The notes: generated by a model from the sequence alone, not told the origin. Positions 9,190-61,871 are shown, counted from the first letter of the stretch. The stretch: DNA of 64,000 nucleotides from Octopus vulgaris (GCA_951406725.2 OX597814.1:183644001-183708000); one strand, 5' to 3'. Made by a program: numbers and translations.

Positions 9190-9893
9190 GAGGATAATAT
9201 CGATATTTAAGTATCCATATTATCTAGTGGCCAGCATGGGAAAAATACCGTACAAAGGTAATAATTTTTAACAATTAAAAATGAGGGTGTCTAAGAGACA
9301 CCAACATGCCGAAATAGCAGTCGAAACTCTGACTATAAAAACCACGTTAAGGGTTCGTGTCGCACCATGAGATAAGACAGATAGACAAAATATACAAGCA
9401 AAAATTATTGAATAATTCAAGATCCAGAATTTATGGTTTTGCTTTAAATAAGCTTTACCGTCATCGGTTGAATATATCAAGAGTACATAAATACAGATAT
9501 ATACATGCAGAACAAACGATATACTTACATATACGAACGTCCATACATAAATACATATGCACGTATGCACGCGGCCAGTTAAATTACCCGCCGAATCATC
9601 CCAAAGTACGACACGGTTAAAATAAACACCGCAGTGAAAATAATAACGAATTATATATATTTATATATGAGGATAATATCGATATTTAAGTATCCATATT
9701 ATCTAGTGGCCAGCATGGGAAAAATACCGTACAAAGGTAATATTTTTTAACAATTAAAAATGAGGGTGTCTAAGAGGCACCAACATGCCGAAATAGCAGT
9801 CGAAACTCTGACTATAAAAACCACGTTAAGGGTTCGTGTCGCACCATGAGATAAGACAGATAGACAAAATATACAAGCAAAAATTATTGAATA

Positions 9894-9952
9894 ATTCAAG
9901 ATCCAGGATTTCTGGTTTTGCTTTAAATAAGCTTTACCGTCATCGGTTGAAT
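9894..9952 (-). ncRNA. Type I hammerhead ribozyme motif (copy B)
   Basis: Reverse complement of the 10175-10233 motif. Confidence 0.65.
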
Positions 9953-10174
9953 ATATCAAGAGTACATAAATACAGATATATACGTGCAGAACATACATTC
10001 GTTATTATTTTCACTGCGGTGTTTATTTTAACCGTGTCGTACTTTGGGATGATTCGGCGGGTAATTTAACTGGCCGCGTGCATACGTGCATATGTATTTA
10101 TGTATGGACGTTCGTATATGTAGGTATATCGTTTGTTCTGCATGTATATATCTGTATTTATGTACTCTTGATAT

Positions 10175-10233
10175 ATTCAACCGATGACGGTAAAGCTTAT
10201 TTAAAGCAAAACCAGAAATCCTGGATCTTGAAT
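10175..10233 (+). ncRNA. Type I hammerhead ribozyme motif (copy C), CCGAUGA core
   Basis: Stem I ATTCAA/TTGAAT; core CCGATGA (10181-10187); stem II GGT/ACC plus GCTT/AAGC; GAAA (10215-10218); stem III TCC-T-GGA; cleavage triplet AUC ending at 10227. Confidence 0.7.
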
Positions 10234-10367
10234 TATTCAATAATTTTTGCTTGTATATTTTGTCTATCTGTCTTATCTCATGGTGCGACACGAACCCTTA
10301 ACGTGGTTTTTATAGTCAGAGTTTCGACTGCTATTTCGGCATGTTGGTGTCTCTTAGACACCCTCAT

Positions 10368-10443
<76 letters not shown>

Positions 10444-10569
10444 GTTTATATACGTACACACACACACATACACACAAATATATATCTGAAATTTACAGAA
10501 AAACAAAAGAGAAAGACAGGTATATAAAGACATAATGAGAATCAAAACGCCACAAAGTTCGATGAAATA

Positions 10570-11060
10570 TATGGAATGATGGGACTTGATTATTGGACTC
10601 CACTTAAATAGCTGAAGCTCCATTCTCTGCAACGCAACCGTAAGCGATACATTATTTGCACCATGTGGAAAATATTCAACCAATATTATCCAAATGATAC
10701 TGGCATTATGTTTATAATTCACCCAAGACTATGCCTCCATGCAATGCGTCCCCTACAAAGATCGAGATCACATCCCATAAGAATATTGCGACACAATTTC
10801 TTCACTGCAATGGTCCTGCTCTGTTCAATGTTATCCCAAAAGAAATTAGAGTAGAAAAATACCCCAAAACTTTCAAACGGTACCTGGACAAATTCCTCCA
10901 GAAAATACCGGATACACTACCTACATCTGGATACGTCTCAACCAACAACAACTCTCTGCTCAAGTGGTCCATTGTGTCCCGAAATAATTAACTAAAGGAC
11001 TTTTCCAGGTGGGGCTATTGAGTTATTCATGGCCTGGGCCGATAATGGCTGAAACCATTC
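10570..11060 (+). mobile_element. CR1-group LINE 3' fragment (ORF2 C-terminus + 3' UTR)
   Basis: Reads GLDYWTPLK*LKLHSLQRNRKRYIICTMWKIF and GPALFNVIPKEIR...FKRYLDKFLQKIPD...NNSL, typical of CR1/L2/Crack-type ORF2 ends. Confidence 0.8.
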
Positions 11061-11563
11061 TACGCTATCTAGGTTACAGACATGCATAATTTCCTCATCT
11101 CTTCAGATGATAGCCGCCTAACATTAAATCTGATGATTTTGATTTGCTATGGCGATGGATATCCATCGCCATGATACTTCATATAATACAAAACGGATCA
11201 ACAAATGAAACGATAGGGAGACATTTGTACATCAGTGGATTTAAGAGAGAAAAGATTTTCAGCAGTTTTGGCACTCACTACGCCGACATACTAGATTCCA
11301 CTGACAAGTACTGGAAGATAACTGGTACTATTTTGTGTGGAAGTTTTATGTCAGAAGATCTTTCTCCTGGGCATAACGGCGTCTCCTCTACCCCTGGCAA
11401 ATCTGTTTAATCCAAAGGTTCAGGAATAATGTAATTAGAGGGCTACTACATGCTTCCCACCCCTCTCTGATCCCCAAATTGCAGCCGCATCACCGAGTGC
11501 AATTCAGTGTCACATATGCATGTATGCATACTGATATGCATACTGGTATGTGTACATACATAC

Positions 11564-11875
11564 AGACCGTTCTTATGATACAAGGATGTTGGCAAAAGGG
11601 ACATGAAGGCCTGCGACATCGATATTAGCAACTGGGAAGCAGTTGCCAGCAATCGTGGAGATTGGTGACGTACCGTAAAAGTGGGAACACAAAGGAGTGA
11701 CAGAGGGAGAGAGGGGAAATGGAAAGACAAGAAAAGACGTCAAGAAGAAACTATGACGTTACAACCAGCCAGGCAAAGTCTTCGCTACATTTGTATTATG
11801 ACATGAAATGTAAAAGCCGGACTAGATTATTTTATGCGCAACTCCATTGTCTCCCGAGACAAACAGGATGCCAAC
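11564..11875 (+). mobile_element. RTE-clade LINE 3' fragment
   Basis: Reads RPFL*YKDVGKRDMKACDIDISNWEAVASNRGDW*RTVKVG, matching the RTE C-terminal R.KD..K..MK...WE..A..R..WR pattern. Confidence 0.8.
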
Positions 11876-11889
11876 AATATATATATATA

Positions 11890-12178
11890 TCACGTGATCA
11901 CGTGACCGACCAGTCCATCAGATGTAGTTACACATCGCTGGTCACAATGCGTTCGCATTGTTTTAGCCTTCGAATGACGCCATCCCACTGGCTAAGCGAG
12001 CAGGCCAACAGAAGAAAGAGTGGTGAAAGAGTACAGCAGGGATCACCACTCCCTGCCGGAGCCTCGTGGAGGTTTTAGGTGTTTTCGCTCAATAAACACT
12101 CACAACGCCTGGTCTGGGAATCGAACCGCGATCCTACGACTGCGAGTCCGCTGCCCTAACCACTAGGCCATTGCGCCT

Positions 12179-12182
<4 letters not shown>
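11890..12182 (-). mobile_element. tRNA-derived SINE (family 3), full length
   Basis: The head GGCGCAATGGCCTAGTGGTTAGGGCAGCGGACTCG...GGTTCGATTCCC has A and B boxes and is homologous to the head at 55401. Confidence 0.85.
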
Positions 12183-12238
<56 letters not shown>

Positions 12239-12424
12239 CAACAATAATTATAATGATAGAAAATTATTCGGTTTTTTTTTCCATTTCATACAGCAAGTTT
12301 TTATGGTTACGACGACCTACCCGTGTTTCCAAGGCATGGAATATGGGCAGTTGCATGTGCAGCCATGCATAATTTTTTCTGGGTTATTTAACGAGCTTAT
12401 ATTAACATATATATTTTTATTTTC

Positions 12425-12520
12425 TATGTTTTACTTGTTTCAGCCATTCTGACTGCGGTCATGCTGGGGCACTACCTTGGAGGATTATTTTAAACTTTGT
12501 ACTTACTCTACCGGCCTCTT
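12425..12520 (-). mobile_element. SINE family 1 tail remnant
   Basis: TTACTTGTTTCAGCCATT...GCGGTCATGCTGGGGCAC matches the family 1 3' tail. Confidence 0.65.
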
Positions 12521-12699
12521 CCACACGCTTCTCACCACACAGATGCGCGTGCGCCTATATATATATTTTTGTGAGTGCGTGTGTGTGTGTATACTTACTT
12601 TCATGCATACATGACTCTACCGTAGACGCTATCTAAATTTCTCAGAAAGATCCTTACTTCTGGACTGCATTGTTGAATAATTCGCAAAGTAAATAGTAT

Positions 12700-12748
12700 A
12701 AATGCATGTCTATATATAAATGCATAAATGCTTGCATACATACATACA

Positions 12749-12782
<34 letters not shown>

Positions 12783-12823
12783 CTTACATACATACGTTCA
12801 TACACACATACATGTATACATAC

Positions 12824-12875
<52 letters not shown>

Positions 12876-13114
12876 ATGTATATATAGACATGTTTATAAA
12901 CTTGTATGTGTGTAATACATGTATGCTTGTGTATATATATATATATTCACATATATATATATATATTCCATTCAGAAATCATATACCAACGTTGCGTGTT
13001 TATATATATATATGTGTGTTTATATATATATATATATGTGTTTATATATATATATATGTGTGTTTATATATATATATATATAAACATAGATACATACATA
13101 CATACATATGTACA

Positions 13115-13147
<33 letters not shown>

Positions 13148-13215
13148 GCATATATATGTGTGCACATGTACATGTATATATATATACATACACATATATG
13201 TATGTACGTATATCA
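12700..13215. repeat. Compound (TA)n/(TACA)n microsatellite
   Basis: Directly visible. Confidence 0.95.
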
Positions 13216-13938
13216 TTAGAGACATGTCCGTTCGCCTGCGTGAATATACGCGTATAGCTAAGCGTCACGTCTTTTTGTCAGTTGAAATGAGGTAAGATAG
13301 GGAAAAAGACAAAAGAAAAAAAGTTGAAAGCGAGAAACAAAAAACAAAAAACAAAAAAATAGAAAGAGAAGTTTAATCTTCCTTCACACCTGGGTAGATC
13401 TGAATATACCCTGCTGTGATGTTTAGTAAGGCGTTAGGGCATTAATGAAAAGTTAGCACCTCTTAAGATAACTTCTCACCAGATAATAGGTTTTCTTCTT
13501 GTATGCATGAAGTTTCACAGCAACTTGCCGAAAAAACAGTCGTAGTTATTATATGCAATAAATATATTGCTTTTAGTTCTATACTTTGTTCCTTTATTCT
13601 TGTGAGTTTGTTGGTTCTACTTTTATCTTATTCTTGTATTGATCATTGGAAATTCCCACCCCCTATTTTATGGGCGCCTTTTAACGGTGCTGACACACAC
13701 AGATACGCATACAAACACACGGAAACACACACATAGACATATACTTGTGCGTATTTGTATGTCAGTGTATGACTGATTCTGAACACATATAGATATGTTT
13801 CACGCATATATTCACATATATATGTATATATATATGTGTGTGTATATATGTATGTGTGTATGTGTGTATGTGTGTTTGCGCGCTCGTGCGCGTATATATA
13901 TATTGGTACACATATAGATCTATACATTTATATGTGTT

Positions 13939-13983
<45 letters not shown>

Positions 13984-15339
13984 ATATACATACATAAATA
14001 TATATGCGAGCTAAGTGTGTCGCTATATTATTTTTTCGAGTGAATGCACATCTTTTATCGGAGATTAAGAAATAAAATATTTATGCTTATCCCATTCATA
14101 AAGCATAGAGCTTGGTGTTGTATGATTATACGTATGTGTGTATGCCTGTTTTGTTTTTGGGTATGAGTGTGTGTTTGTGCTAGTAGGTATGGCTATATAT
14201 ATTTATCCATATCTACTAGCATCTATACACGTGCTTCAGCATATATACATATTCTTATACGTATATATATATATTTGTCTGCAATCACCCGTAAGACATT
14301 ACTCAAACGTTCACATAACTACAACTATAGCGACACTTGTATTAGAATATCATACATACGTATATGGAAATACATGTGTGCGCATGTCTTCTTTTCTACA
14401 TACGCTTGTGCATTCTTATTGGAAAAGAACCCACCATCCTCGCTGCAACTATCAATCTATTTTTAATTAAAGCAATGAAAAAGGAAAAAAACTTTTGTAA
14501 GGTATTGTGAAATTTGTTTTCGGCTTGTGTCATGAAAACACATTTTAGTCGGCATGTGTAAACGCCACTGGAAGTATGTGTTTTTTACTTTCGTGTCGCC
14601 ATTGTGAACAGGATCTAATATTATTTGCTAGCTACTTATCTACTGGGTTCTGTACTTCAACAAAATTGTTCTACTGGATAGTGAAAAACAATAAACGCGC
14701 ATTTGTGTTATTGACTGTAATGAAAATATAACGCAACACTTGGTATTATGTGACTTTAACTGGAAGAAAATATCTGGATTAAAACTAAAGATGTAATAAC
14801 CAGACAAGTTGGTATTAAAGGCTGAATCAATAAATTATTAGCCTTCACTGAGAATGTGGCAAATATATATTGGCTTAGATAGGCCTGTAAAACGAATTGA
14901 AAATTTTTGAGCACTGGAGTGGATTCTTACGGTGACTCGTTTAGTAGGAAAAAAAATGTCATACAGATGTAGTCTCACCGGCATTACAATCACTCTCTTC
15001 AGCTCATTCTATCCCTCTTTCTCTTTGATTTTTTTTCTCTTTCAGTATATCAGCTTCTGCATTTTTTATTCCCTCGTTGGCTGTTTCTTGCATTTTTCAT
15101 GTGAGATACTCCATCTTTCTATTTTTCATAATATGGTTAAATTCGTTAACACTTTCATATTTTTCAGCTTCTTGCGTTCTCCTAATACCTTTTCTGCTAT
15201 GAGAACCGAATTTGGAAACAGCGTCGAAAATTTGTCAGTTCGTATAATCTTCCTTGCACAACTGCCTTATTTTTAGTACCTAATTCCAAGAAAGAGCAGC
15301 CCATGACAGAAGTATGGCAGACTAAATGACTTGTGATAT

Positions 15340-15553
15340 TGATTTCAAATTTTGGCACAAGGCCAGCAATATCGAGATAGGACGTAAATCGATTACATCG
15401 ATCCCAATGTTCAACTGGCGCTTATTTTATTGACTCCGAAAGGATAAAAGGCAAAGTCGACCTCGGCGGAATTTGAACTCAGAACGTGAAGACGGACGAA
15501 ATGCCGCTAAGTATTTTCCCCGGCGTGCTCACAATTCTGCCTGCCCGCTGCTT
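15340..15553 (-). mobile_element. tRNA-derived Nin/Deu-domain SINE (family 2)
   Basis: Contains GAAAGGATAAAAGGCAAAGTCGACCTCGGCGGAATTTGAACTC, the reverse complement of B-box plus Nin-like domain. Flanked by AAATGAC(T/C)TGT direct repeats. Confidence 0.85.
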
Positions 15554-16184
15554 TAAAATGACCTGTATCATTAATTATATTTCTTTCGATTTGGACTTGA
15601 AATACCATCGAAATCTCTATGCTTTTCATTGATGTGGAGGCAAATATATAGGTACCTGTAAAATAATATGGTAGATAAACCGACTTACCCCAACAAATTG
15701 CTTCTATATTAGAAAACCTTATGATGCGATTCTGTCAATGATGACCCCGTTATTAGAGGTTATGGCGGTCATTGATCCTTGAGTTTCTTGGTGAGTTTTG
15801 TTCAAAATATGAAATTTAACTTCTTCCTTGAGTTCATCAAATGGAGATGCTAAAAGAAGTCATCCTTAAAAATTTCCCCATTTCAAAACGTATAATTAAT
15901 TTCAGTGTCCTTCAAACGTGCTATGTTTACTCAATATGCGACTTCTTTGAGTCGTGTGTTTCCTTGGTGGACAGGTAGGGGTATTTTCGCAGTTTAAACA
16001 TAGTTGGTAGTGGTAGGGACTATGTGTATTTGTAGCGTTTGCGGTTGTTGTATTTGACGTGAAAAGCAGGGATTCTGTGCGTGTTTGGGAAATTATATTT
16101 TATAGTTAACATATTTTCTGTACACGTGGTGACTTCTATGATTCCTCGCTGATTAAACCACATTACTTTCCCTCTTGTAGTACT

Positions 16185-16835
16185 ACTGAACTCAAAGAAC
16201 TCTACACAGCCCAAATGTGACGGTCTGGTGTGCTGTTTGAAAAGCTGCCGTCATTGGTCCTTACTTTTTTAAAGACAATAATGGAAATGCTGGTAGTGTG
16301 AACTCCGAGCGTTGCGTCAAGATGATAAACAACTTCTTTATGCCTGGATTACGACGAAAACGTATGTCTATTCGACGTGTATGGTTTCAGCAGGATGGGG
16401 CGACGGCCTACACAGCCAGGGCATCAGTGGACGCCCTCTCTTCGGTGACCACCCCATTTCCAGGTTTACTGATATTCGTTGGCTTCCTCAGTCCCCTGAT
16501 TTGTCCATGTGTGATTATTGCTTGTGGGGAAACCTCAGGGTTCGTTTGTATGCGCTTAAGCCCCGTACATTGAACGATTTAAAGGAAGCTATTCGCGTGA
16601 AAGTCGAGGAAATCGACAGAGCGATGCCGGAGAGAGTGGAGACCAACTTCCAACAACGCCTTCAGAAATGCATCAATGAAAACGGACACCAGATGATGGA
16701 TGTTGTTCTCCACACTTAACTTTGACAAATGCTAATTCAATACAAACACATTGATGTCAATAAAATTTTGTTTGCAGCTAAAATTAATGATTTTGTGAAA
16801 TTTTCAACAACATCCGTCCTCTCTGCCCCACCCTG
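16185..16835 (+). mobile_element. Tc1/mariner-superfamily transposon 3' half, rosa/DD41D-like
   Basis: Reads HSPNVTVWCAV..VIGPYFF, WFQQDGATAYT, WLPQSPDLSMCDYCLWGNL...RLQKCINENGH, frameshifted. Ends CACCCTG followed by TA at 16836-16837. Confidence 0.85.
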
Positions 16836-16881
16836 TAAGTATGTATATAAATTTATATATGTGTGTGAGTATTTTTGTGTG

Positions 16882-16885
<4 letters not shown>

Positions 16886-16970
<85 letters not shown>
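16886..16970. repeat. (TG)n microsatellite
   Basis: Pure run. Confidence 0.98.
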
Positions 16971-16971
<1 letters not shown>

Positions 16972-18516
16972 TGCATTCATACTCACACAGTCAAACATAC
17001 CTACTTACACAGAAACATCACAAGTCTATGTTTAGTTCGACTTCCGCCGATTATTCAGTTTCAAATCTCTTTTAAAGGCCTTTTCTTCACCTCATATCAC
17101 TACTAAAATAGAATACATGAATATTCATACCTACATACAGACAGGCATCATACGTGCATGACTACATACCTAAACATGTTTGCGTGTCTATTTGCCACAG
17201 TGTTAGCATGTGCTGTTAATATGCGTCTGTAAAGAATACATACGTTGCTCTATGTACGCAAACACCCGTTGTCAGCTTGTCAAATATCAAAACGTTTAAG
17301 GTTACTATATTGAAGTCAAAGAATGGTAAATATACAGACATGAAAGCCTCGCTTCTCCATAACATGCTAAACCATCGTAGCGAGCTGGTATGGTTGGATG
17401 AAATTAGTGTGGTTGATATTTCGCCCGAATTGTTGGAAGTTAATAATACAGACAACTTTGTGAACAGGATAGGCGTTCCCGAGAGACAAAATTTGGGAGG
17501 CGGAATAATTTTGCAAACATTTTAGAGAGAATTTGCGTGTTAAAAAATATAAAAATAAGCGTTGGCAGGATATGAGACAGCAGGTGACTGGCAATGAGGC
17601 CTGCATGAACTTAAAGCGTATGAATTGCAAGGGATGTTTTAATTTGGTTGTTAGCATTTTGAGAAAAACCAATGCCTAGAGACAATTCAGTTCATCCTCG
17701 TTTGAGATATCCGTTAAAACTGGGCGAAGTTAGTGTATTTATTAAAATTATTGCAGGTTAATGTATGGAAAAAACATATTTGTTAGAGAATCTTTCCGGA
17801 GGCGTTACAGAACTAAAAAAAAACAAGAGAAGGGATGGGTGAAAATTATTTACTTAAGTTACTTGAGAGAACGATAGGAAAAGATCGGAAGATCTTTTAG
17901 TGTGTAATTCGGCATAATAAACGATTTCCTCCTATCAAAGCTATGAGGCTGCTATATATAGGGAGCCTCTGTAGAACCAGCAACCAAAAATACTTTTGTG
18001 GAAAAAAAACACATTGACCACATAATAATAGATAAACTATTGCTAAAATATAGCCGGGCGTTTATAACTGAAATGCTACAAATGAAAGATTTGCTGATGG
18101 ATGAGGATAACCTACGCCAAATAACAAGAAAACCACTAGCAACAAATGTACACAGCCTTATCCAGGTTCCTCATAAAAATTAAATGGCATAATATTTTAA
18201 TAATAAACTAAGTTTATTTTTTTCCCTAGTCATGGCTGTTAGGGGTTGGAAATCTAAAAGTGATTAAGTAAACGATTACTTTCCCAAGTGTGCTGCATAT
18301 ATTTAGACAATTTAGAATAAATAAAATGAATATATATATATATATATATATACTGTCAACCCTTAGGGCTGGCAGAATATATCAAACAGGATACATAAAA
18401 CGAACGCAGAAACAATTTTATTTGCAGTAATTTATGAACGTGAAGTAATAATGTACAGTTTACAAATTAGCACAGACTTAGTGTGCTTAAATCAGCTGTA
18501 CCAAGAGGGAATATAC

Positions 18517-18599
<83 letters not shown>

Positions 18600-18619
18600 C
18601 ATATATGTATACACTCACG

Positions 18620-22180: not shown

Positions 22181-23500
22181 CAGATGAGGAGTTTGTGCAG
22201 GCCCTTGATGCCAAGCGCGTGAAACTAAACCTACCATCGGCTAATGCCAAAGATCAATGGGAGGAGCAAAACAACTTGCCGCAAAACTTGATGCCTTGAT
22301 AAGGAAAATTACTCTGGAACGCAAACTAGCCACATACGGAGACGTTGTGTATGCAACCTGCAGGGACATCCTTGGAGTAAAAAAGCCAACGGAGAAGAAG
22401 CCACCTCAGAAATCCAGGCGGCAGCGCATGATGGGGCACACTAAGATTCAGAAGAATAACCTACGGAAACAACTAAAGATTGCCTCTGATACTGAGCGGC
22501 AAGGCTTGCATGAACTCTGGCAAGACTTGGATACCAAAGATAGTGCCCATAGCAAAGCGGAAACTGAGTAAAAAAAAGAGAGTAAGCGGAAAAAAAGACG
22601 CATGACCGCTTCTTCAAAGGCCCCTTCCAATTCGTTAGGGCGCTGTTTGAGCAGCCAAAGTCTGGAACACTGACTGTTGATAAAGACGTGCTTGAACACT
22701 ACCTCGAAGAAGCATGCGCACAAACCCAGAAAGATACCCCGCTTAACATCCCTGGCCTAGTAGAACCTGGCAGACTGACAACAGCATTCAACGACAAGCC
22801 ACCCACGTTGAAGGAGATGAGGAAGGTGGTCGAGAAAGCCAGAGCCAAGTCCGCGCCGGGTTCTAACGGAATATCGTACCTTCTGTACAAGAAATGCCCC
22901 CAAAATCCTGGCATGGCTCCACAGAATGTTATGGTCAGCCTGGAAGAACAAGAAGGACAGTGCCCAATGGATGATGGCTGACGGTGTCTACATCTCCAAA
23001 GAACAGAACTTATCATACACCATCAACCAGTTCAGATCCATCTTACTCCTGAACGTCGAAGGGAAGATATTGTTCTCTGTCATGGCTGCCAGACTGACCA
23101 GCTACCTGCTGGAAAGCAGCTATCTGGATGTGTCTGTCCAGAAGGGAGGCATACCAGGAATACCCGACTACCTAGAACACGTCACGATGATTTGGGATGC
23201 AATCCAGAAGGCCAAGGCAGGAAAGAAAGACCTTCACGTCATATGGCTTGACCTTACCAACGTGTATGGATCTGTGCCACAAGAGATGAATCAGATGTCT
23301 CTCCAAGCGTACAACGTGATGCCCTACATCCCAGAAATGTTGAAAAGCTACTTTGTCGATGCGGCTCTCTAAAAAGGAGTACACAACCAGCTGGATGTGC
23401 CATCTCCCCCACCCTTTTCGTGTTGGCAATGGAAGTCCTATTGAGGGCAGCTTCTGGTGGTGCAAAACCGGCTGACCTCGGCAATGGCCACCAGACACAT
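22181..23500 (+). pseudogene. HERO-clade non-LTR retrotransposon reverse-transcriptase fragment
   Basis: Reads KSAPGSNGISYLLYKKCP, QFRSILLLNVEGKILFS, YLDVSVQKGGIPG..LEH, IWLDLTNVYGSVP and GCAISPTLFVLAMEVL, with stops, frameshifts and an internal deletion. Confidence 0.85.
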
Positions 23501-23786: not shown

Positions 23787-23937
23787 AAATTATAATTTAG
23801 GGTATCAAAGAGATACCGCCACGCCGGAAATAGCAGCCAAATGCTGACTGTATGAACATTTAATGTGGTTTTTGAGTCAGATTTTGGCTGCTATTTCCAG
23901 CGTGGCGGTATCTCTTAGATACCCTAAATTATAATTT
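23787..23937. repeat. 63-bp inverted repeat with 25-bp spacer (two PLE-like 3' ends pointing outward)
   Basis: Arms 23787-23849 and 23875-23937 have 4 mismatches by eye. The repeat sits in (TA)n and shares a motif with the 9.3-kb insert. Confidence 0.9.
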
Positions 23938-36150: not shown

Positions 36151-37339
36151 CTCGACATAGTTGTTAGGTCTGCTAGAGATAGCAATAAAGTCTTGGATCG
36201 GGTAAGTGAGCTGAAACTAAAAAGTTAATATGAATGGTGTATGAAATAAGAATCGTTCATTAGTATCGTATTCAGATCCCATCAAAAGGACTTACAATGT
36301 TTGATCGCCATATAAACAATTACATTTCAATGTTATAGCATTGTTTTCACATGGAATGAAGGGTAGACTATTTTAAAAAAAAGATCAAGCTGTAATAAAG
36401 GATAATGAACTACATAAGCACAAAACCACAGAATTAAGCAGAATGGTGTAATGTATAAATCGATACCAGTACTCAACTTGTACTAATCTTTTTGTCTCAT
36501 GGGTGATAAAAGTCTGGTAGCGCCATTATTTTGAAATATATATTAGGGACTAGACGCAGTATTAATACAGAGAGGTATTATTTATTCTCGCTTAAACATG
36601 GATGTTCAATTAAAACAAACTTTACTGCAATATTTAACATGGCAAAAAACACGCTTGTTTGTATATTTCACCAGCGGGGAGATAACTTCCTAACAACTAG
36701 CATGCTTTCGCCACCAAAGGCCTATATAAGAGTTTCTATGGTAAATACCGCACTAAAGTTTGTTATAACAGAACATTCACGTGTAAGTGGGAATAAATAT
36801 TACCTCTCGTTATCAATTATGCCTGTGTCACTAATATATATTTTGTAACATGCTAACTGGTTAATCGCGATACCAGTGCCTATTCTGGTACTGATTCTCT
36901 ATATATCGCTAGCGGTGCCATGAGTCATTGCCATCTTTAGTGGTCGAGCATCAATCATCAATGAGATCAAAGGACGTTGAAATCACGTGAACCGGCGGTC
37001 TCGCTGCCGGAGTTGGTGGGGTGTTTTCTCCCCGTTGGCGATTTAAAAACAAGCAAGTGTGCGTTCTGCATCAAAACCCTATATGAGAGTTTCGATGATG
37101 GGAAATACTGGACTAAGATTTCTTGTAACAGAATATCCACGCTAAAGTGGGAATATCCACGTTAAAGTGGGAAGAAATATAGTTTTGAAATAGCTTCGTC
37201 TTGAATTAGAGAAAGAAATAGAGCTATGGCATAGAAATTAATATTATGCACTTTTGGTTGTAAAAAGTATTCTTACGATATTTAGTTCTTTTTGTAAAGA
37301 ATTGTTTCATAATTTAATTAATTACTTATAAAATAATAA

Positions 37340-40084: not shown

Positions 40085-40088
<4 letters not shown>

Positions 40089-40320
40089 AATAATGAGGGA
40101 GATAAATTAATATTAATTTTAATATCAATTTAAAACCAGTAGTCTAGCATACAAAAAATCTGAGAAATCAGAGAAAATTCTAATATATGTGTATCTTGGC
40201 AGGGCAAGACTGCTAGGTAGTCGGCCGTATGCTAGAAATAGATCATAAACGATCAAACTACAATGAAAGTTCTCTAGAGGAAAAATTCAGCGAACACCAG
40301 GTTCGAGATGTCTGTGCATA
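40085..40320 (-). mobile_element. Probable PLE-like 3' fragment
   Basis: Abuts (TA)n with an AATAATGAGGG end and carries the hairpin + TGCTAGAAATAG module (40208-40241). Confidence 0.45.
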
Positions 40321-40344
40321 TGATATATTTGTGATTGTATATAT

Positions 40345-51517: not shown

Positions 51518-51804
51518 GACCTATTTAATTAATAACAGCATATTTCTAACACCAGGCACCTGTTAGAAATAACATGTAAACTACTTGTAACGTACAGCCC
51601 TTGCATCGAGGCTTCATGTCTAACTACGAACACATATTAAAACTAACATCAGTTTTGTATCACATACAGAATTCTTGATAACAATAACATAGGAACTAAT
51701 TCTAATATTCAGTTCTTCTTAATCATATGCAAATTGTTTATTATAATTGTGTGCTGGAGATAGCAAAGAGACTATTTAACACAAGAAATCCATTCTTTTT
51801 TTTA

Positions 51805-52833: not shown

Positions 52834-53148
52834 TAGAGGGGTGCTAGGATCCATTTAATACTAGAATTCATTTAATTCATTAAAACCGTTACTACTATTT
52901 TAAATATTTCTGTTTACACAATTTTTTTCTGTAATACATCTGTTATTTGCAGGTAAAGTGGAAATCCAACAACAACTAGTAATTTAACAAAGGAGGGCGC
53001 ATGGGTGTCCACACTAGACTAATGGAGTGTGTAAATGCGGGAGGCAAAAAGTTTGAACATTTGTGAGTTTATTTTTGATATATTTGTATAATCAATAAAG
53101 TACATTTTGTGTGCACGCTTTGTTTTTCATTATTTTTGCAGCCCTCTG
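52834..53148 (+). mobile_element. Internally deleted Tc1/mariner-superfamily element
   Basis: Encodes VHTRLMECVNAGGKKFEHL* (transposase C-terminus), with imperfect TIRs TAGAGGGGTGC / GCAGCCCTCTG. Confidence 0.65.
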
Positions 53149-53308
53149 AAAATGCAAATAGGCTTATCCAATTCAATTAAGCTTTTTGTTGTGATGGGTT
53201 TATAAGTAGTGTCTCAGTAGGGAATTGATGATGAAATACCTACCCAAGATTGAAATTATCACGGCTGAGTCCTCTATATCAGTCTATTGTATTTAAAAAG
53301 GAGAGAGA

Positions 53309-53358
<50 letters not shown>

Positions 53359-53704
53359 TAGATTAAATTAGAGATAAAACCACTATTAGGCAAATCAAAC
53401 AGTGAAAATCGTAAGCCAATACATAGAAAGAAAATTATCCCTAATATTATTATATATATATATATATATACACACCAATCACAATGGTGGTTTGAGTAGG
53501 TATGGTAATGCAAATAGGAAAAACTAAAACTCAAAATATGACTATATGTATATTTTTCGAAACAACACACGAAAACACTCGGACCTTGAGTTACTCTGTT
53601 GCCTCTGTTAAATGTTCATATATATATATATATATGTTTATGTACACGCACACACACATATATATTCAGCAGAATTCTGTGGAGAATATAGGGTTGAGAT
53701 TATA

Positions 53705-53938
53705 TATATTTCTTTACTACCCACAAGGGGCTAAACACAGAGAGAACAAACAAGGACAGACATGCGGATTAAGTCGATTACATCGGCCCCAGTGCGTAAC
53801 TGGTACTTAATTTATCGACCCCGAAAGGATGAAAGGCAAAGTCGACCTCGGCGGAATTTGAACTCAGAATGTAACGGCAGACGAAATACGGCTACGCATT
53901 TCGCCCGGCGTGCTAACATTTCTGCTAGCTCGCCGCCC
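53705..53938 (-). mobile_element. SINE family 2, full length
   Basis: 18-bp TSD TATA(G/A)GGTTGAGATTATA (53687-53704 and 53939-53956). Confidence 0.93.
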
Positions 53939-55282
53939 TATAAGGTTGAGATTATAATCATCAGAATGTTTGGAAATTGCAAGGGAAATGTGGCCCGTAA
54001 TCATAAGGACCGTGTAAAGTTATGTACCATTAATCGGGTGAAGAAAATAACATCGTGGAGACAATAACGCATATGATTCTAAGAACCTTATTCAGCTATT
54101 TGCTGAAGCTCTTTAGCATTTGATTCAAGTTATACTCGCAGTGTGTTTGTGAGTTCCAATGCTACAGTCGATGTTACTTGTCCAAGGTAGCTACGATGTC
54201 GGATCGAACCCAAAAGCACAACGTTTCGGAGCAAACTTTTAAACCTGGAAGCTATGTCTGAATGTTGAAGTTTGCAAAATTGAAATACATAATTAGATAA
54301 AGAATTACAGACAGCGAAGAAATAAACATAGAGACAAGTAGAACATTTTCTTTCAAATATGTACAGTTTGTTTTTATTATTACTTTTTTTTTTATAGGGT
54401 TTCTCCTTTTTTATTGTTAGTAAGATGCAAAATTTAATTAGCAGTACGTAGAGACGAACTTCTACACACGCACAAAAGAGAAAAATACTCATAAAATTTC
54501 TGATATTTAAATATACAAACATGTTCTACTGTCAAAATTCAAAAATATAAAATAACATGTGTTAACGAAACAAAATAAAAGAAATGGAGACAGCACTTTC
54601 GAAAATGTTATGTTTGAATAAAATAATAAAAAAATGTAAAAAAAACCTCTTGCTATCAACCACGAATAGATTTCTACACCACATGGCACAAATATGTTGC
54701 AGGGTGAAATACAAGCAGAGACAATTTTTGGCCTCATCGGTGAACTGTTTTAAAGATGTTGGTTTTCATAGCTTCGTTCTAGCCAATGTATTCTTCAGTT
54801 TTTAACTTTGGAATTTGTTATATGTTGATTTCTTCTTTTGCGAAATGAGATGGTTCTGCCATCCTTTTATCATGGGAGTTGCAAAGGTATTATATTTTAT
54901 TAGACAAGCTGGAGGTAAATGAATATGAAAGATAGGCATTTGTTCGTTGGTAATTGAGTGCATAGCTCTGTAGGCTTAAAGGAAAGTAAGCCTTCGTTCT
55001 CATAGCATTAAACCTATTTAATGTTTCCTTGAAATCTGCTCAGGTTTCCCAATGTAATGCACACAGCTTGAATATGTTTGTCTACATGTATGTATTTATG
55101 TATGTATGTTGATATAATTACACGCTCGCACACACACACCATATACCCACACATAGAATCCTTCTCCATATGTATATATATATATATATATACATGGGCG
55201 TACATGTGTATATATATATAAGTGTGTGCGTGTGTGCTTGTGTGTGTATGAGTCTGTATGTGTGTCTGTATGTATGCATCTG

Positions 55283-55354
<72 letters not shown>

Positions 55355-55358
55355 CATC

Positions 55359-55400
<42 letters not shown>
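55283..55400. repeat. (TATC)n followed by (TA)n microsatellite
   Basis: Directly visible. Confidence 0.95.
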
Positions 55401-55401
<1 letters not shown>

Positions 55402-55759
55402 TAGGGCAGCGGGCTCGCGGCCGTAGGATCGCGGTTTCGATTCCCAGACCGGGCGTTGTGAGTGTTTATTAAGCAAAAACATCTAAAGTTCCACGAGACT
55501 CCGTCAGGAGTAGGTGGCGAACCTTGCTGTACTATTTCACCAAAACGTTCTCTCATTCTTTCTTCCTGCTTCTGTTGTACCAGTATTTCGAAGGGCCACC
55601 CTTGTCACATTCTGTGTGACGCTGAATCTCCCCGAGAACTACGTTAGGAGTACACGTGTCTGTGGAGTGCTCAGCCACTTGCATGTTAATTTTATCAGCA
55701 GGCTGTTCCGTTGATCGGATCTACTGGAACCCTCGTTGTCGTAACCGACGGAGTACCAC

Positions 55760-55760
<1 letters not shown>
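55401..55760 (+). mobile_element. SINE family 3, slightly 5'-truncated, alternative tail
   Basis: The head and body match the 11890-12182 copy for about 150 bp, after which the tail differs. Confidence 0.85.
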
Positions 55761-55800
<40 letters not shown>

Positions 55801-56139
55801 GGAAAGGTGGGTAGAATGAGAAATATTGTATGTAGATGTATGGCGAGCTTGTTAGAGATGGGCGAACGATCTAATTGGTACTGGTTATTATTTAGTAAAT
55901 ACACGCACAATATCTCTCTCACAGACACATTCACATACCATATACCCACACACACGCATACACACACTGCCACACACACACACACACACACATATATACT
56001 TGAGCGCTCGTGTGTATTTATATATATATATATATGTGTGAATGTAATACATAGGCAAGGGATTTTGCCCTTGGTTTCAATGGTTGCTTTACGTGAGTGT
56101 TCCTTGGGACTGGTTGACCACACTCCCTATTTTTCCTGA

Positions 56140-56416
56140 TTTGATTTTCATCTATTTATCATCTGTTTTCCAACATAACACGATACATGGCTGGGAACCA
56201 GTATCGCAGCGATGATGTCGTCATATCTGTAGTTGATGACTTTGTTTGAAGAATAGGATGAAAGCTTCTTCATCGACGATATCCAATCATTGCAGTACCG
56301 ATGGAAGAAGTGTGTGAACCGCAAGGTAGGGCGGATATTTTGAAGAATTAAAACTTTTTTGGTCATATTCCATGAGAGTATGTTGGTCAGTATATGAACA
56401 TTTTTGCCGCCCCTCG
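56140..56416 (+). mobile_element. mariner transposon 3' remnant
   Basis: Reads DDVVISVVDDF...DESFFIDDIQSLQYRWKKCVNRK..YFEE and ends in a TIR-like GCCGCCCCTCG. Confidence 0.75.
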
Positions 56417-56422
56417 CGCGCG

Positions 56423-56463
<41 letters not shown>

Positions 56464-56465
<2 letters not shown>

Positions 56466-56889
56466 TCATTTACTTGTTTCAGTCATTTGACTGTGGCCAT
56501 GCTGGAGTCCCGCCTTTAGTCGAGCAAATCGCCCCCAGGACTTATTCTTTGTAAGCCTAGTACTTATTCTATCGGTTTCTTTTGCCGGACCGCTAGGTTA
56601 CAGAGACGTAAACACACCAGCATCGGTTGTCAAGCGATGTTGGGTGGGGGGCAAACACAGACACACAAACATATACACATATACATACATATATATAATA
56701 TATATACATATACATATACATATATACGACGGGCTTCTTTCAGTTTCCGTCTACCAAATCCACTCACAAGGCTTTGGTCGGCCCGAGGCTATAGTAGAAG
56801 ACACTTGCCCAAGGTACCACACAGCGGGACTGAACCCGGCACCATGTGGTTCGTTAGCAAGTTATTTACCACACGGCCACTCCTACGCC
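56464..56889 (-). mobile_element. SINE family 1, full length
   Basis: Complete head-CORE-microsatellite-tail structure. Confidence 0.92.
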
Positions 56890-59263
56890 TAACATATGCA
56901 TAAGTATATACACACGTGTATATATGTATGTATATATGTGTGTATGTATGTATGTATGTATGTATGTATGTATGTATGTATGTATGTATGTATGAATGGA
57001 TGGATGGATGGATGGATGTTCGTATGTTTGTATGTATGTATGTATGTATAGAACTCACATGTATCATATGTTGGCATGTGCGCCCAAGCGAGTGTAATGA
57101 TATCCGTGTGTACATTTGTGTAATATTGTGTATTAGTGATTAATATGACTGTTTCATTAGAAAATTTTGTGTCTATTGTTATAACGAAAGTGGCCTTATC
57201 TGGTATTTAGTCATTTAGTGGAAGATTAATCCTCAGTTAGACTTCAAAATAAAGTAGATGTCTGAAAATGTCGCCTACGTTTCAAGGATTAAATTGTGTC
57301 CACCTTCAGACAAATTAAAGCCTATTAGTTTAGGTAGAAGAGAAATATATATCATGAAGAAAATTAGTTTATCATGAATACATTGTAATAGTGTATATAG
57401 AGAAATGAGATCTTGAATAAATACTATTTGTTGCAAATTTCTATCAAAACTTAAAGAGGCAACGTTTATTGTCAGCGTAAACTTAATTGCGCATTAAATT
57501 TGAGATCGTGACATCCCCTCTTTCTGACTAGAAGTCTCTCTCTGTCAAAATATTTGATTATAAACTATCGCATCTACGTTTACTTTTGTTATGTATGAAT
57601 ACATATTAATATATTTAATGTGATTATTCAACAAAATATTCAATATTCACTTTATAGGCCGTTTTCTTTTATATATAGAAGTATTTTTTCTCATGATTAT
57701 ATCCTTCTGAACAAATTGTGTTTTATCTAGCCATTCTTTGACGACCATTTAAATAATAACTCCGCTCAAATCACCATCTTCGCATTTTAAAGAAAACAAA
57801 TGACTAAATTTTATTAGATTTCGTGAATTAATATACTTCTTATTGTATATGATAGCATCACTTACAGTAAGTCAGACACTAAGAATTTAAAAATTGTCTT
57901 AAGTCAGCCTGATGCCTTGCTATTTTGTCTTTTACTAATACGCATGTTAGATGTTTCGGTTTCCACAAATTATATGAAGTAGATGCATATACAATTTGTT
58001 GTCGGAAAATTTATATATAAATGCAAAATATTGTCTCACAGTAAAGTTCACCTTAAAAACTATTTATTCGAATTTTCTCTTATTTTAAACGTAAAAGTGG
58101 CTTATTATTTTCTTTATAGACATTATATTTATTTCTTTTAACAGAACAGGACGTCAATATTTCTGTAACATTTATATCAATTTATTAAGAATTTTCTCAA
58201 AACGAATTCCGATGTGATACAGTTTAATCGATTACTCCTCCAGAATCAGAATAAAGAACTGGTTTTAAGCTGAACATAATAAATCAATGAGATTACAATG
58301 AAGCCATTAGCAGCACGCTAAAAGTGTCATTTCTTAAATCCGCTTACTTTATATCCTTTTCTGGATTAACAATTTGTAATTAAAGTCATAATTAGTTTGA
58401 CTTGGCTCAGTGCTGTTGTTTGTAGTGTCGTGAGAGAGGCTATTTAATTAATTCTAGTATATATTTTATTTCTAATTATTATTATCGTCGTATCATTAAA
58501 GACTGTATTTAGAATTGCCTGAGCTATATTCTTGGTGATATCACGTTAAATATCGACTGACTCGAATTTATAGCAAAAGAGTGGAAATTATTATATCATA
58601 TATAACATATCAGGTATAGAATATATGATCCACTTTAACCCAAAGATGGCTTTATATATTTGCCGGTCATTTTATTGACCTTCGAAATATGAAAATTAAA
58701 AAGTATTGCTGAACCATGTAGATAATCTAATTTCATCAAATGAAGCATCTATTCCAGTTCTCTAATATATCAGCGGCTTCTACAAGTACCACTTGAATAC
58801 CATAATGGTAGGAATACTATTTTCTATGTAACATGTTGTAGATTTTATGGAATATTAAGTCTGGTCATATTTCTGATAAACGTAATTTCGGTATTTTAAG
58901 CTCAGCTTCATAATAATATGCGCGTTACGACAAAAGATAGAACTGAAGTTTTAGCTTGCACAACTTTCAACACTTTGAAAATAATCGTACAAAAGATACA
59001 CGAGATTCGTATACCATAGCAAATTATGTCTTACATAATTTGCAATCGTCAACAGCTCACATAACGGCTATTTCGGTATATATTGTGACAATGTACCATA
59101 TTTTCATTCGCAAGATTTTAAGTTGGTGATCCTCAAACTTGTCTCACCGAACGCTAAATTGTCTTAATTTTCATCCGATTCGAGTTTTCAAAAGTTCCTG
59201 TCATAAAGGAAAGCTTGGCACCAGCAGGTAGGAATTACACATACATACATACATACATACATA

Positions 59264-59321
<58 letters not shown>

Positions 59322-59396
59322 TAGAGATAGTAGTCCCTTTCATCCCACCATATAAAAATTTTTTTAATTTAATTTAATACTTACTACTCATTTCTC

Positions 59397-59490
59397 GGCT
59401 ACACGTGTTTCTCGAGGTTCTTTTACGGTTCCTTAAGCAGGCAGTGTTTTACAGGAACCTTTCTTAAGATGTAACCCCAATCATCAGGCC
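59397..59490 (-). ncRNA. Type I hammerhead motif with extended stem II (mirror copy)
   Basis: Reverse complement of 60070-60163 with core, GAAA and stem III intact. Confidence 0.7.
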
Positions 59491-60069
59491 TCTAAGTAAC
59501 TTTATCATAGTTCGATACCAAATACTATATTTGGTAGTTGTTTCGCCAAATCTTGCGACGTCAAGCCGAAATTAATACGTAGTAGGACAATGGTAGTCAA
59601 CGGTAGTTTGTTCATGTTTTGTACCCTTAAGTTATTTTTACTTTGTAAATTTTTAATTTTTTATCATTCGTATCATTTGTAAATTTTCTTGTTGCATTTT
59701 GTCATTCGTACTATAGTTTTTATTCGAAAATATTTATTTGTCATTGCTTTCATTTTTATTCGAATATATTTATTTGTCATAGCTTTCATTTTATATCATC
59801 GCAAGTATATAATTTATTTTTATCCCTATATATTATTAATTTTATATGAATGTTTACAGACATAAGTTACGCGAGAATTTAGTTTTTGTAAACTTTTACT
59901 TTTTATTCTTTATTCGTATTTTTTATTTTTTATTTTATTTGTTATTTTTATTTGAATTAAATTATGGCTTGTACAGTAATGTCCGGCGAACCTATTTACA
60001 CATACACATACTTATTTGTTAAAATTAAAATATGGTATTTGGTATCGGACTATGATAAAGTTATTTAGA

Positions 60070-60163
60070 GGCCTGATGATTGGGGTTACATTTTAAGAAA
60101 GGTTCCTGTAAAACACTGCGTGCTTAAGGAACCGTAAAAGAACCTCGAGAAACACGTGTAGCC
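60070..60163 (+). ncRNA. Type I hammerhead motif with extended stem II
   Basis: Stem I GGC/GCC; CTGATGA (60073-60079); stem II base TTGGGGTT/AACCTCGA; GAAA (60149-60152); palindromic CACGTG; cleavage triplet GUA ending at 60160. Confidence 0.72.
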
Positions 60164-60356
60164 GAGAAATGAATAGTAAGTATTAAATTAAATTAAAATT
60201 CTTTTATATGGTAGAATGAAGGGGGCTACTATCTCTAAATAATATATATATATATATGTCCTCATTGAGAATAATTTGAACCCCTGTGATGCCAGGATTT
60301 TTATTCCCTAATAAATAAAGTAAAATTAAAAAAATATATATATACACACACATTCA

Positions 60357-60398
<42 letters not shown>

Positions 60399-60442
60399 CA
60401 TATATATACATATTCATATGGATAGATATATATATATATATG

Positions 60443-60481
<39 letters not shown>

Positions 60482-60581
60482 GTACAAACACATATATGTT
60501 TGTGAGTGTGTAAATATATGAGTACGTGTGTATAGATGGCTTGATAGAAAGACTGAGAAAGAGACAGATGCTAAGTGAGAA

Positions 60582-60616
<35 letters not shown>

Positions 60617-61427
60617 AAGCAGACAGACGGATACAGAAACAGAGATAAAAAGAGAGGGAATGAAAGAAACTGATCGAAGGAGAAATGCAGGATTATGAAA
60701 ATATGAGGAATGTACGTAAGTTTACAGAACGTGAAACAACAATTTTACACTTTCAAAACCAGGCTGAAATTCTCTATAGAATGATGCAGCAGTTTTTTTT
60801 CAAAATAGACCCCCCTTCTCCGTAAGTTAAATAATGACCTCAAACATTGCTTTGAATAGAGTCTATAAAATTTAATTTCACGGTTGATCAAGGCAGAGTT
60901 TTAGATCAACTTTCAAGTGTTGGTGGTAGTTACGGGGCGCTTTATATAATCATGCTTCCAAGTACTTCATAGACGCCCTATGTCAACTGACCGAAGATAA
61001 CTTGGAAAGCACTGACTCATCTGAGCTAATGAGCCTATGCACTTTTAAAATGTAATCTGCATTTGTTTATATTCTGTTCGTATTTCTCTTGTCGATATGG
61101 CAGAGTAAATATGATAGAATGAAAGACAGCAAAATTTGGAGAGAAGGGTAAGGCGCAAAATAGCGGAAGTATACGTTGAGAGAGATAGAAAGAGGGAGCC
61201 ATAGAATACGAGTAGTGATGGAAGAAATATTTACAATGAGTAACGGAAAGAGACATGAGACTATGAAACCTATGCGGACGAGTAAAAGAAGAGTTATTAA
61301 AAGAGATAGAGAAAAAGAATGAGGTTTGAAGGAAGACAGAAGAATGCAGCAATGCAAATGTGCATACAACAATATACACGCAGAAATACGCACACATACG
61401 TGTATGCATATGATTATACATACATGC

Positions 61428-61430
<3 letters not shown>

Positions 61431-61487
<57 letters not shown>

Positions 61488-61503
61488 TAATAATAATAAT
61501 AAT
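61431..61503. repeat. (AAT)n microsatellite
   Basis: Directly visible. Further (AAT)n runs lie at 61876-61962 and 62331-62378. Confidence 0.95.
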
Positions 61504-61871
61504 GAAGGGTTCTAGAGTAGTACCAGCATGCTAAAATAGAAGTCAAAAACGACTTAAGACCAAAATCTTCACTTAAACACAAAGGCGAAATCGGGGGAAA
61601 TGGGCAAAAATTACCTTAAGATCCCATACAAATCACGAAAAAAATTGGAAATTAAAAAGCCAGAGATATCCGTAACGCAGCGTTTACGAAGTTTGGGAAA
61701 ATATCATTTAGTTATCCTCAGCGAGTCTTACTGACCTAGGGTCATGGACCTTGCCCGTCTCAACCAATGTGTGCGATGAGAGTTTTTAACGTCTCGGCAA
61801 ATTTAAAAAGGTGATCGAAGTGAATAAAAATTAAAAAAATATAAGGTTATTGCTTAGTGAAGATTTGTGGT

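What the first reader, a model, noticed from the sequence alone, without database searches (positions are those of the whole stretch)
9286..61544. Conserved 3' module (GCTATTTCTAGCA-like motif + covarying hairpin) shared by four dissimilar inserts
Seen on the + strand: GGTGTC-taaga-GACACC..CATGCCGAAATAGCAGTC (9286-9322); GGTATC-aaaga-GATACC..CACGCCGGAAATAGCAGCC (23801-23838); GGTTCT-agagt-AGTACC..CATGCTAAAATAGAAGTC (61508-61544); GACTG-ctagg-TAGTC..TATGCTAGAAATAG (40208-40241). The stem sequence changes compensatorily while the 5-nt loop and the adjacent motif are kept. Where a hammerhead is present, the module lies downstream on the same strand. The motif alone also recurs near 3961, 4795 and 36171. 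Inference: a cis-acting RT-recognition or 3'-processing signal. AUUUCUAG before a terminal hairpin loosely recalls an Sm-site/U7 layout, which is speculative.
Basis: partly seen in the sequence, partly recalled or inferred. Interest (0 to 1): 0.7.

Follow-up and report, generated by a model that had tools for sequence, protein, structure and literature searches.

The report
Shared folded tail of ribozyme repeats
Several otherwise unrelated non-coding jumping repeats in this animal genome end in the same short sequence, which is predicted to fold into a three-armed RNA junction and likely serves as the handle by which a Penelope-type reverse transcriptase grips these RNAs and starts copying them; binding is untested.

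Summary
The module is real: seven copies in four inserts, all at element 3' ends on the hammerhead strand. A fifth, hammerhead-bearing insert ends inside the motif. The inserts are non-coding, microsatellite-targeted, tandem or inverted Penelope-type (retrozyme-like) elements. Corrections: 9286 and 23801 are 79% identical relatives, the 5-nt loop is not constant, and hairpin covariation alone is not significant.

A second hairpin precedes the motif in 7 of 7 copies. In both families that keep the 'tail', the motif and an upstream pentamer pair with that tail. The predicted fold is one three-way junction, with compensatory and G·U changes that favour the hammerhead strand. Copies end at two sites, each just after a hairpin.

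Best reading (0.55): an RNA element bound by a Penelope-type RT that sets internal initiation, as in anole Poseidon. Main rival: a DNA snRNA-type promoter motif. An Sm/U7 site is not supported. No autonomous partner or binding data were found. Earlier scan notes report two-start retrozymes in this genome; none of those shown described this junction.

The parts
9190..9651 (-). Copy A: near-full non-coding monomer (tandem period 479 bp) with hammerhead, module and about 95-nt tail, ending in (TA)n
9660..9996 (-). Copy B: 5'-truncated direct repeat upstream of A, with hammerhead, module (9765-9813) and tail
9997..10371 (+).
10175..10233 (+). Type I hammerhead of copy C (core reads CCGAUGA here; 4-bp stem III with 1-nt loop; predicted cut after 10227). 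A and B carry the same; A has lost GAAA
   Evidence: stem II positions 10191/10211/10213 vary in a pairing-compatible way in contigs, phase not shown
9341..9345 (-). P1 5' strand (GUGGU), predicted to pair with 9227-9231 in the tail
   Evidence: P 0.90-0.97; 18/400 tail shuffles reach it
9319..9334 (-).
   Evidence: listed family variants fall in the loop only (10320, 10322, 10325 in copy C numbering)
9305..9318 (-). Conserved motif: unpaired junction linker GCUAUUU followed by the P2 5' strand
9286..9302 (-).
9227..9238 (-). Tail strands P2' (9232-9238) and P1' (9227-9231), contiguous, closing the predicted junction
9193..9224 (-). Terminal AU-rich hairpin followed by CCUCAU and the distal end
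   Evidence: P 0.97-0.99
23787..23937 (.). Head-to-head pair of very short 3' ends in TA/TG microsatellite; modules 23801-23849(-) and 23875-23923(+), both tail-less
40088..40335 (-). Insert E40: 5'-truncated, no hammerhead, module plus tail. P1 40257-61/40139-43, P0 40241-54, P2 40227-36/40143-52, H1 40203-26, terminal hairpin 40103-32
61503..61874 (-). Insert E61 in (AAT)n: degenerate hammerhead (about 61670-61723, by eye), module 61508-61555, ends at the proximal site. Its 5' end (61856-61873) pairs with 61557-61573, the P1 position
59318..60241 (.). Insert E59: inverted arms, each with a canonical-core hammerhead (cores at 59487(-) and 60073(+)). Both arms end a few bases after the 5' half of the motif (59324-59335(-), 60224-60235(+)); no H1

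Best explanation
The module is the shared 3' end of several non-coding, hammerhead-bearing Penelope-type repeats; it is predicted to be the 5' half of a three-way RNA junction closed by the element's tail, and likely acts as the binding platform that lets a Penelope-type reverse transcriptase, supplied in trans, recognise the RNA and start copying it at two fixed internal sites. Steps: (1) Tandem units are transcribed and the hammerhead likely cuts out monomers (inferred from known retrozymes). (2) The downstream domain folds: P1, the short P0 hairpin, the unpaired CUAUUU linker, and P2 enclosing H1 (predicted in two families). (3) The RT-endonuclease binds it and nicks TA- or AAT-rich DNA (inferred; the targets are seen directly). 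(4) cDNA starts either just 3' of H1 or just 3' of the terminal AU-rich hairpin. This gives tail-less and tailed copies, often back to back (the two end classes are seen; that they are RT starts is inferred). Tail-less solo copies cannot close the junction and would be dead ends.
For: Position: 7 of 7 modules lie at 3' ends. Four end 3-15 nt after H1 and three after the tail, and both end types read hairpin, then CC(U)CAU, CCUAAAU or CCUUCAU, then an AT-rich run. Layout of partial tandem plus inverted truncated copy with optional tail in microsatellites matches PLEs (PMC8557442 passages; PMC3846280 passages, where pLTR cis sequences sufficed for mobilisation in trans). Fold: domains A and E40, each folded alone, give the same P1/P0/P2 junction in both MFE and centroid. 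Motif-to-tail pairing is 0.98 in A (5/400 tail shuffles) and 1.00 in E40 (0/400). Between A and E40, P2 has two double changes and at least one wobble-compatible change, P1 one of each, P0 two double changes, and no pair is broken. G·U pairs in A favour the hammerhead strand (P2 duplex -10.6 vs -7.2 kcal/mol). MAFFT aligns the two tails at P2'/P1' and at the final CCTCAT without structure input. Precedent: anole Poseidon RT starts at two internal sites in a stem-loop downstream of the hammerhead and needs RNA reaching 3' of the start (PMC11167929, parts 1-2 of 4). In contigs of 4 runs, none of the 40 listed variants falls in 10326-10357, while 38 positions vary in 10030-10325 (3 rows hidden).
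Against: Only two families keep the tail, so covariation rests on about 5 double changes; no R-scape-level test is possible. P1 in E40 is not distinguishable from chance (0.34; 195/400) and loses to other folds in longer contexts. A first contiguous-pairing test gave 67/500 for A. A covariance model from copies A/B finds the E40 domain end to end, but at only 9.2 bits, E=6, rank 15 of 20; E40 folding z is only -1.87. The E61 P1' strand could be an ordinary inverted duplication. No autonomous partner was found: no PLE ORF among 14 scanned, and the 3' ends of Naiad_Obim, Naiad_Ovul, Naiad_Omin and Hydra-1_Obim show no module by eye. E59 has a hammerhead but only half the motif. Much of the motif is conserved in sequence, which a DNA promoter element would also explain.
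Confidence: 0.55

Rival explanations
1. The conserved letters are a DNA promoter element (snRNA-type proximal sequence element) at the end of each unit that drives transcription into the next tandem unit; the surrounding helices are general retrozyme self-pairing.
For: The motif is shared by unrelated bodies and conserved in sequence. Motif-like 12-mers occur away from any hairpin (5 matches vs mean 0.53; pattern chosen after the fact). Earlier unchecked scan notes propose a promoter-like motif shared by hammerhead repeats and U1/U2 genes of this genome; their motif sequence was not shown.
Against: A DNA element does not predict tail strands that change together with the motif, wobble pairs favouring one strand, two flanking hairpins in 7 of 7 copies, or copy ends fixed next to H1. 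It can coexist with the best explanation.
Confidence: 0.15
2. The domain binds a host protein or guides RNA maturation or stability, for example as an Sm-like site exposed between P0 and H1 once the tail is trimmed, rather than binding the RT.
For: In tail-less RNA the motif would be about 16 unpaired nt between two hairpins, and all four sites have CCCU after the last stem, as at the U7 3' end. E40 reads AUUUCUAG.
Against: The other three sites read AUUUCGG, AUUUCC(A/G)G and AUUUUAG; none matches AAUUUGUCUAG or AAUUUUGG. P2 is predicted to hide the 3' half. No Rfam family reaches its gathering score anywhere in the window.
Confidence: 0.12
3. The module is a vestige of common descent: all inserts derive from one ancestral pLTR, the bodies were replaced or diverged, and the 3' end is simply the part always retained by 5' truncation, with no specific recognition role.
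For: Modules are homologous in sequence, 5' truncation keeps 3' ends, and inverted duplications are common in these inserts.
Against: Retention of pairing through double changes while bodies lose all similarity implies selection; listed variants avoid the stems and the motif within the family.
Confidence: 0.12
4. The ends are DNA-level termini (subterminal repeat plus hairpin) of a rolling-circle Helentron/DINE-1-type element, or 3' stem-loop tails of LINE-dependent SINEs.
For: A hairpin near the 3' end followed by T/AT-rich sequence is the layout of both (recalled).
Against: Hammerheads, head-to-head inverted arms, a 479-bp tandem and an optional tail are PLE marks. ARAGORN finds no tRNA gene in the window, and no matching 5' subterminal repeat was seen in A or E40.
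Confidence: 0.05

Closest known systems
Poseidon of Anolis carolinensis: internal RT initiation and tail (PMC11167929; parts 1-2 of 4 read; supplement 2 was images and gave no text; the GenBank supplement could not be read)
   Same: Hammerhead upstream, two internal starts that define an optional tail, AT-rich targets, and required RNA extending 3' of the start site.
   Different: There the region is ORF sequence (+111-118, minimum +172), an AC-rich stem-loop and a 30-40-nt tail. Here it is non-coding, the tail is about 95-115 nt, and one module is shared by unrelated bodies. No junction is described in the parts read.
Metazoan non-LTR retrozymes (PMC7229834, passages and discussion; bioRxiv 10.64898/2026.07.22.740005, parts 1-3 of 5)
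   Same: Non-coding low-GC tandem unit with a type I hammerhead; PLEs proposed as mobilisers.
   Different: The unit is 479 bp (150-450 bp in PMC7229834, 51-972 bp in the preprint). The hammerhead is of the PLE minimal type and is mutated in these copies. The parts read name no shared cis element for RT recognition.
Hydra-clade and other EN+ PLE pLTRs (PMC8557442; passages; supplement parts 1, 2, 24, 52, 53 of 59)
   Same: (TA)n targets; hammerhead layout with an extra nucleotide on each side of stem II and a 4-bp stem III with a 1-nt loop, as in File S2.
   Different: Hydra-1_Obim ends about 35 nt after its hammerhead and shows no module by eye; the driving clade is unidentified.
Telomerase RNA CR4/5 and yeast three-way junction (PMC2094081, passages)
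   Same: A small three-way junction with one short hairpin and conserved linker bases, proposed to bind an RT of the same superfamily.
   Different: Linkers there are 0, A and GU(CA) in 5'-to-3' order. Here they are 2-6 nt, 5-7 nt and 0, a mirror arrangement with no shared consensus. At most an analogy.
U7 snRNA / Sm site (PMC12360213, passages)
   Same: U-rich stretch before a terminal hairpin and CCCU.
   Different: The consensus is not met, the motif is predicted to be half paired, and no U7 family match was reported at gathering score.

Membership tests
PLE-mobilised insertion (pLTR-type) | Partial tandem plus inverted 5'-truncated copy | tested here: met
   9190-10371; also 23787-23937 and 59318-60241
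PLE-mobilised insertion (pLTR-type) | Optional tail at one end | tested here: met
   A and B tailed, C tail-less
PLE-mobilised insertion (pLTR-type) | Type I hammerhead in the terminal repeat | tested here: met
   A, B, C and E59 by descriptor; E61 by eye only; absent from the truncated E23 and E40
PLE-mobilised insertion (pLTR-type) | Same ends on an element encoding PLE RT and GIY-YIG | tested here: inconclusive
   No PLE ORF among 14 window ORFs; 4 published octopus consensus 3' ends lack it by eye; no genome held
Non-LTR retrozyme | Non-coding tandem unit with a hammerhead in each unit | tested here: met
   Period 479 bp, hammerhead in A and B; the tail-to-start junction recurs in 4 contigs of run X3 (table 7)
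Non-LTR retrozyme | Intact catalytic core | tested here: not met
   These copies read CCGAUGA and A has UAAA; contigs of 4 runs mostly read T at 10181 and at 10182 (about half in X3), implying UUGAUGA if in phase
Non-LTR retrozyme | Self-cleavage and circular RNA | not testable with these tools
   Needs bench assay or raw RNA reads
Sm / U7 site | AAUUUUGG or AAUUUGUCUAG consensus | tested here: not met
   0 of 4 sites match
Sm / U7 site | Single-stranded site (recalled requirement) | tested here: not met
   3' half paired at P 0.95-0.96 in tailed RNA; would be open in tail-less RNA
Telomerase CR4/5-type junction | Linkers L1=0, L2=A, L3=GU(CA) and P6.1-like stem | tested here: not met
snRNA-type promoter element | Same motif upstream of U1/U2 genes at a fixed distance from the start | not testable with these tools
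   No snRNA gene in the window; no genome held; no cephalopod consensus surfaced in one search or the passages

The most novel reading that the evidence does not exclude
Penelope-type reverse transcriptases, the closest relatives of telomerase, recognise their RNA through a conserved three-way junction that plays the part CR4/5 plays in telomerase RNA. This junction is a portable tag: unrelated ribozyme repeats acquired it to hitch a ride, and its two hairpin-CCUCAU boundaries set the two start sites that create the long-unexplained PLE tail.
Probability: 0.25. Interest if true: 0.75.

Novelty: new variant of a known kind. Interest (0 to 1): 0.5.

Why it matters
How PLE reverse transcriptases choose their RNA, and which enzyme moves animal retrozymes, are stated open questions. 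The only in vitro PLE study read here narrowed binding to a 172-nt stretch without defining a structure. A roughly 125-nt domain shared by unrelated non-coding families gives a concrete candidate. It can be tested by compensatory mutation, used as a probe to find the autonomous partner, and might serve as a tag for PLE-mediated insertion of other RNAs.

Tried and rejected
- No whole genome is held for this window, so no genome-wide count.
- Rfam: no match at gathering score; the listed E-value matches (best 150 of 279) are nearly all miRNA-model hits on microsatellites or palindromes.
- Module patterns in viral contigs: 0 hits in two scans. In metagenome contigs: 5 hits, none with the upstream hairpin on inspection, judged chance.
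- A sequence-only model from six modules finds only the 7 known copies at E<0.3. An nhmmer profile of A/B misses E40 at E<=10 and finds 61508 at E=0.015.
- The RT fragment at 22245-23500 reads as a non-LTR LINE type, not a PLE (judged from recall), so it is not the partner.
- Five motif strings were absent from the Craig 2021 supplement text (line wraps could hide hits).
- No RNA holder was listed among sequencing runs. Within-family variation of H1 and the tail in reads stayed untested.
- One search used a structure string off by one column for H1 and is superseded.
- Motif-alone sites share no significant flank similarity with the modules (only 3962 with 4794, 4/300).
- Two earlier-finding look-ups by sequence and one near this window returned nothing.
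- Not-in-print statement: searches listed no paper on a shared structured 3' element of PLE-type or retrozyme RNAs. Most hits were seen as listings only; subscription papers, Repbase and Dfam were not searched; bioRxiv supplements were closed and may bear on this.
Full report
Setting. The window is microsatellite-rich animal DNA of about 35% GC, full of SINE and LINE pieces. I take it to be octopus from recalled SINE sequences and from earlier scan notes; no call names the organism and no genome is held.

Observation. They read in the direction of the title motif on the minus strand, which I call sense. Three more copies exist (9765 -, 10314 +, 23875 +). A descriptor fitted afterwards finds 7 strict motif hits. 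The modules are homologous in sequence while the bodies of the 9.2, 40.2, 59.3 and 61.5-kb inserts are not. However, 9286 and 23801 are 79% identical over 85 nt, so there are three distinct bodies, not four. The 5-nt loop is not constant. H1 covariation is suggestive only: 4 of 6 pairs change on both sides, 5/500 shuffles reach the score, and the tool warns that related sequences do this without structure in 5-25% of trials. The motif-alone sites lack the two-hairpin context and are only mildly above chance (4 vs 1.19; 5 vs 0.53 for a pattern chosen afterwards).

The inserts. 9190-10371 consists of a near-full unit (A), a truncated direct repeat upstream of it (B; period 479 bp) and an inverted copy (C), all set in (TA)n. 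Each has a type I hammerhead about 104 nt upstream of the motif. The family is abundant: 308, 837, 567 and 84 contigs were laid from 4 of 4 runs, and four contigs of one run show the same tail-to-start junction. 23787-23937 is two head-to-head 3' ends. E40 is a truncated copy with module and tail. E61 lies in (AAT)n with a degenerate hammerhead seen by eye. E59 has inverted arms with canonical hammerhead cores, and both arms end just after GRCTRCTATYTC, the 12-mer otherwise found only in the five A-family and 23.8-kb modules (7 matches, shuffle mean 0.04; pattern chosen afterwards). Partial tandems, an inverted truncated copy, an optional tail and microsatellite targets are the marks of endonuclease-bearing Penelope-like elements (PMC8557442 passages; PMC3846280 passages). 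A non-coding hammerhead tandem is a retrozyme-type element, for which PLEs are the proposed mobiliser (PMC7229834 discussion; preprint parts 1-3). The hammerhead cores of A-C are mutated, so these copies fail the intact-core test. No PLE ORF was found among 14 window ORFs.

In the two families that keep the tail, the motif's 3' half pairs with it. P2 is 7 bp in A and 9-10 bp in E40, with pairing probability 0.98 (5 of 400 tail shuffles) and 1.00 (0 of 400). Directly 3' of the P2' strand, with no linker, lies a strand that pairs with a pentamer upstream of P0 (P1: GUGGU/GCCAC in A, GUAGU/ACUAC in E40). Folded alone, both domains give the same three-way junction, with (G)CUAUUU or UAUUU as the unpaired linker. 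Between the two families P2 shows two double changes and at least one wobble-compatible change, P1 one of each, P0 two double changes, and nothing is broken. The wobbles favour the hammerhead strand. MAFFT aligns the tails at P2'/P1' and at the last CCTCAT unaided. E61 starts with an 18-nt stretch complementary to its own P1 position (P 0.97), as expected of a permuted unit, though an inverted duplication would look similar. Both tails end in an AU-rich hairpin followed by CCUCAU; the tail-less copies end after H1 followed by CCUCAU, CCUAAAU or CCUUCAU.

Results against the junction. P1 in E40 is at chance level (195/400) and is lost in longer folds. A cruder pairing test was not significant for A (67/500). 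A covariance model from A/B recovers E40 end to end but at E=6 (E=0.038 in a 401-nt window chosen around it). Only two tailed families were available. The absence of listed variants at 10326-10357, against 38 variable positions in the 296 nt before, would be weakened if the 3 hidden rows fall there.

Mechanism. In the one PLE studied in vitro, RT starts at two internal sites in a stem-loop downstream of the hammerhead, these sites define the tail, and the RNA needed extends beyond the start (PMC11167929 parts 1-2). The anatomy here fits that scheme: a folded domain that needs the tail, enclosing the proximal end and abutting the distal one. I therefore read the module as the RT-binding and initiation domain (0.55). 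Shown: sequence, positions, end classes and layout. Predicted: the fold. Inferred: RT binding, initiation and a trans-acting partner. The main rival is a DNA promoter motif (0.15), prompted by unchecked scan notes that hammerhead repeats here share a promoter-like motif with U1/U2 genes; I could not see or test that motif. Host-protein or Sm binding (0.12) fails the consensus in 4 of 4 sites, but the layout would exist in a trimmed RNA. Passive common descent (0.12) does not explain the retained pairing.

Known versus new. The elements and the two-ended insertion pattern are known kinds, and earlier notes of this scan report two fixed starts for other retrozymes of this genome. The shared junction is the new part; seven paper searches listed no description of it, with the limits given under Tried and rejected. 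It is not a CR4/5-type junction by linker test, and the published octopus Naiad and Hydra 3' ends lack it by eye, so the driver is unknown. Verdict: a new variant of a known kind, interest 0.5.

Noticed in passing
window 6626-8607 (-): ORF1-only Tx1-like element (weak zf-CCHC; two broken frames) inserted into a SINE with an apparent 16-bp target duplication. The Tx1 label is recalled.
   Followed up: partly
window 22245-23500 (+): Broken non-LTR reverse transcriptase fragment (RVT_1 E=9e-4), truncated by a SINE piece; not PLE-like by recall.
   Followed up: partly
window 61966-62330 (+): 57-aa C-terminal fragment plus 3' region between (AAT)n runs, resembling R4/Dong-type LINE ends (recalled, not tested); it shares the (AAT)n array with E61.
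   Followed up: no
window 10181-10182 (+): Contigs mostly read T at both positions, so the dominant subfamily may have a U3·G8 hammerhead core (UUGAUGA) instead of C3-G8; phase not shown.
   Followed up: partly
window 59318-60241: Hammerheads with a very long branched stem II (68 nt) and a palindromic stem III, one per inverted arm, 93% identical arms.
   Followed up: partly
window 36534-36843: Imperfect 310-bp palindrome (68%), with an internal part repeated at 37044-37155; MITE-like, unexplained.
   Followed up: no
window 51530-51580 and 14178-14221: Short perfect or near-perfect inverted repeats; the first has arms resembling the motif.
   Followed up: no
window 3962 (-), 4794 (+), 36171 (-), 50233 (+), 51752 (-): Motif-like 12-mers without the two-hairpin context; 3962 and 4794 share weak downstream similarity (4/300). 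Possibly relics of an older repeat.
   Followed up: partly
window 9226-9256 (-): The tail of copy A around P2' resembles the E61 motif itself in direct orientation, because the P2 core is near-palindromic.
   Followed up: no
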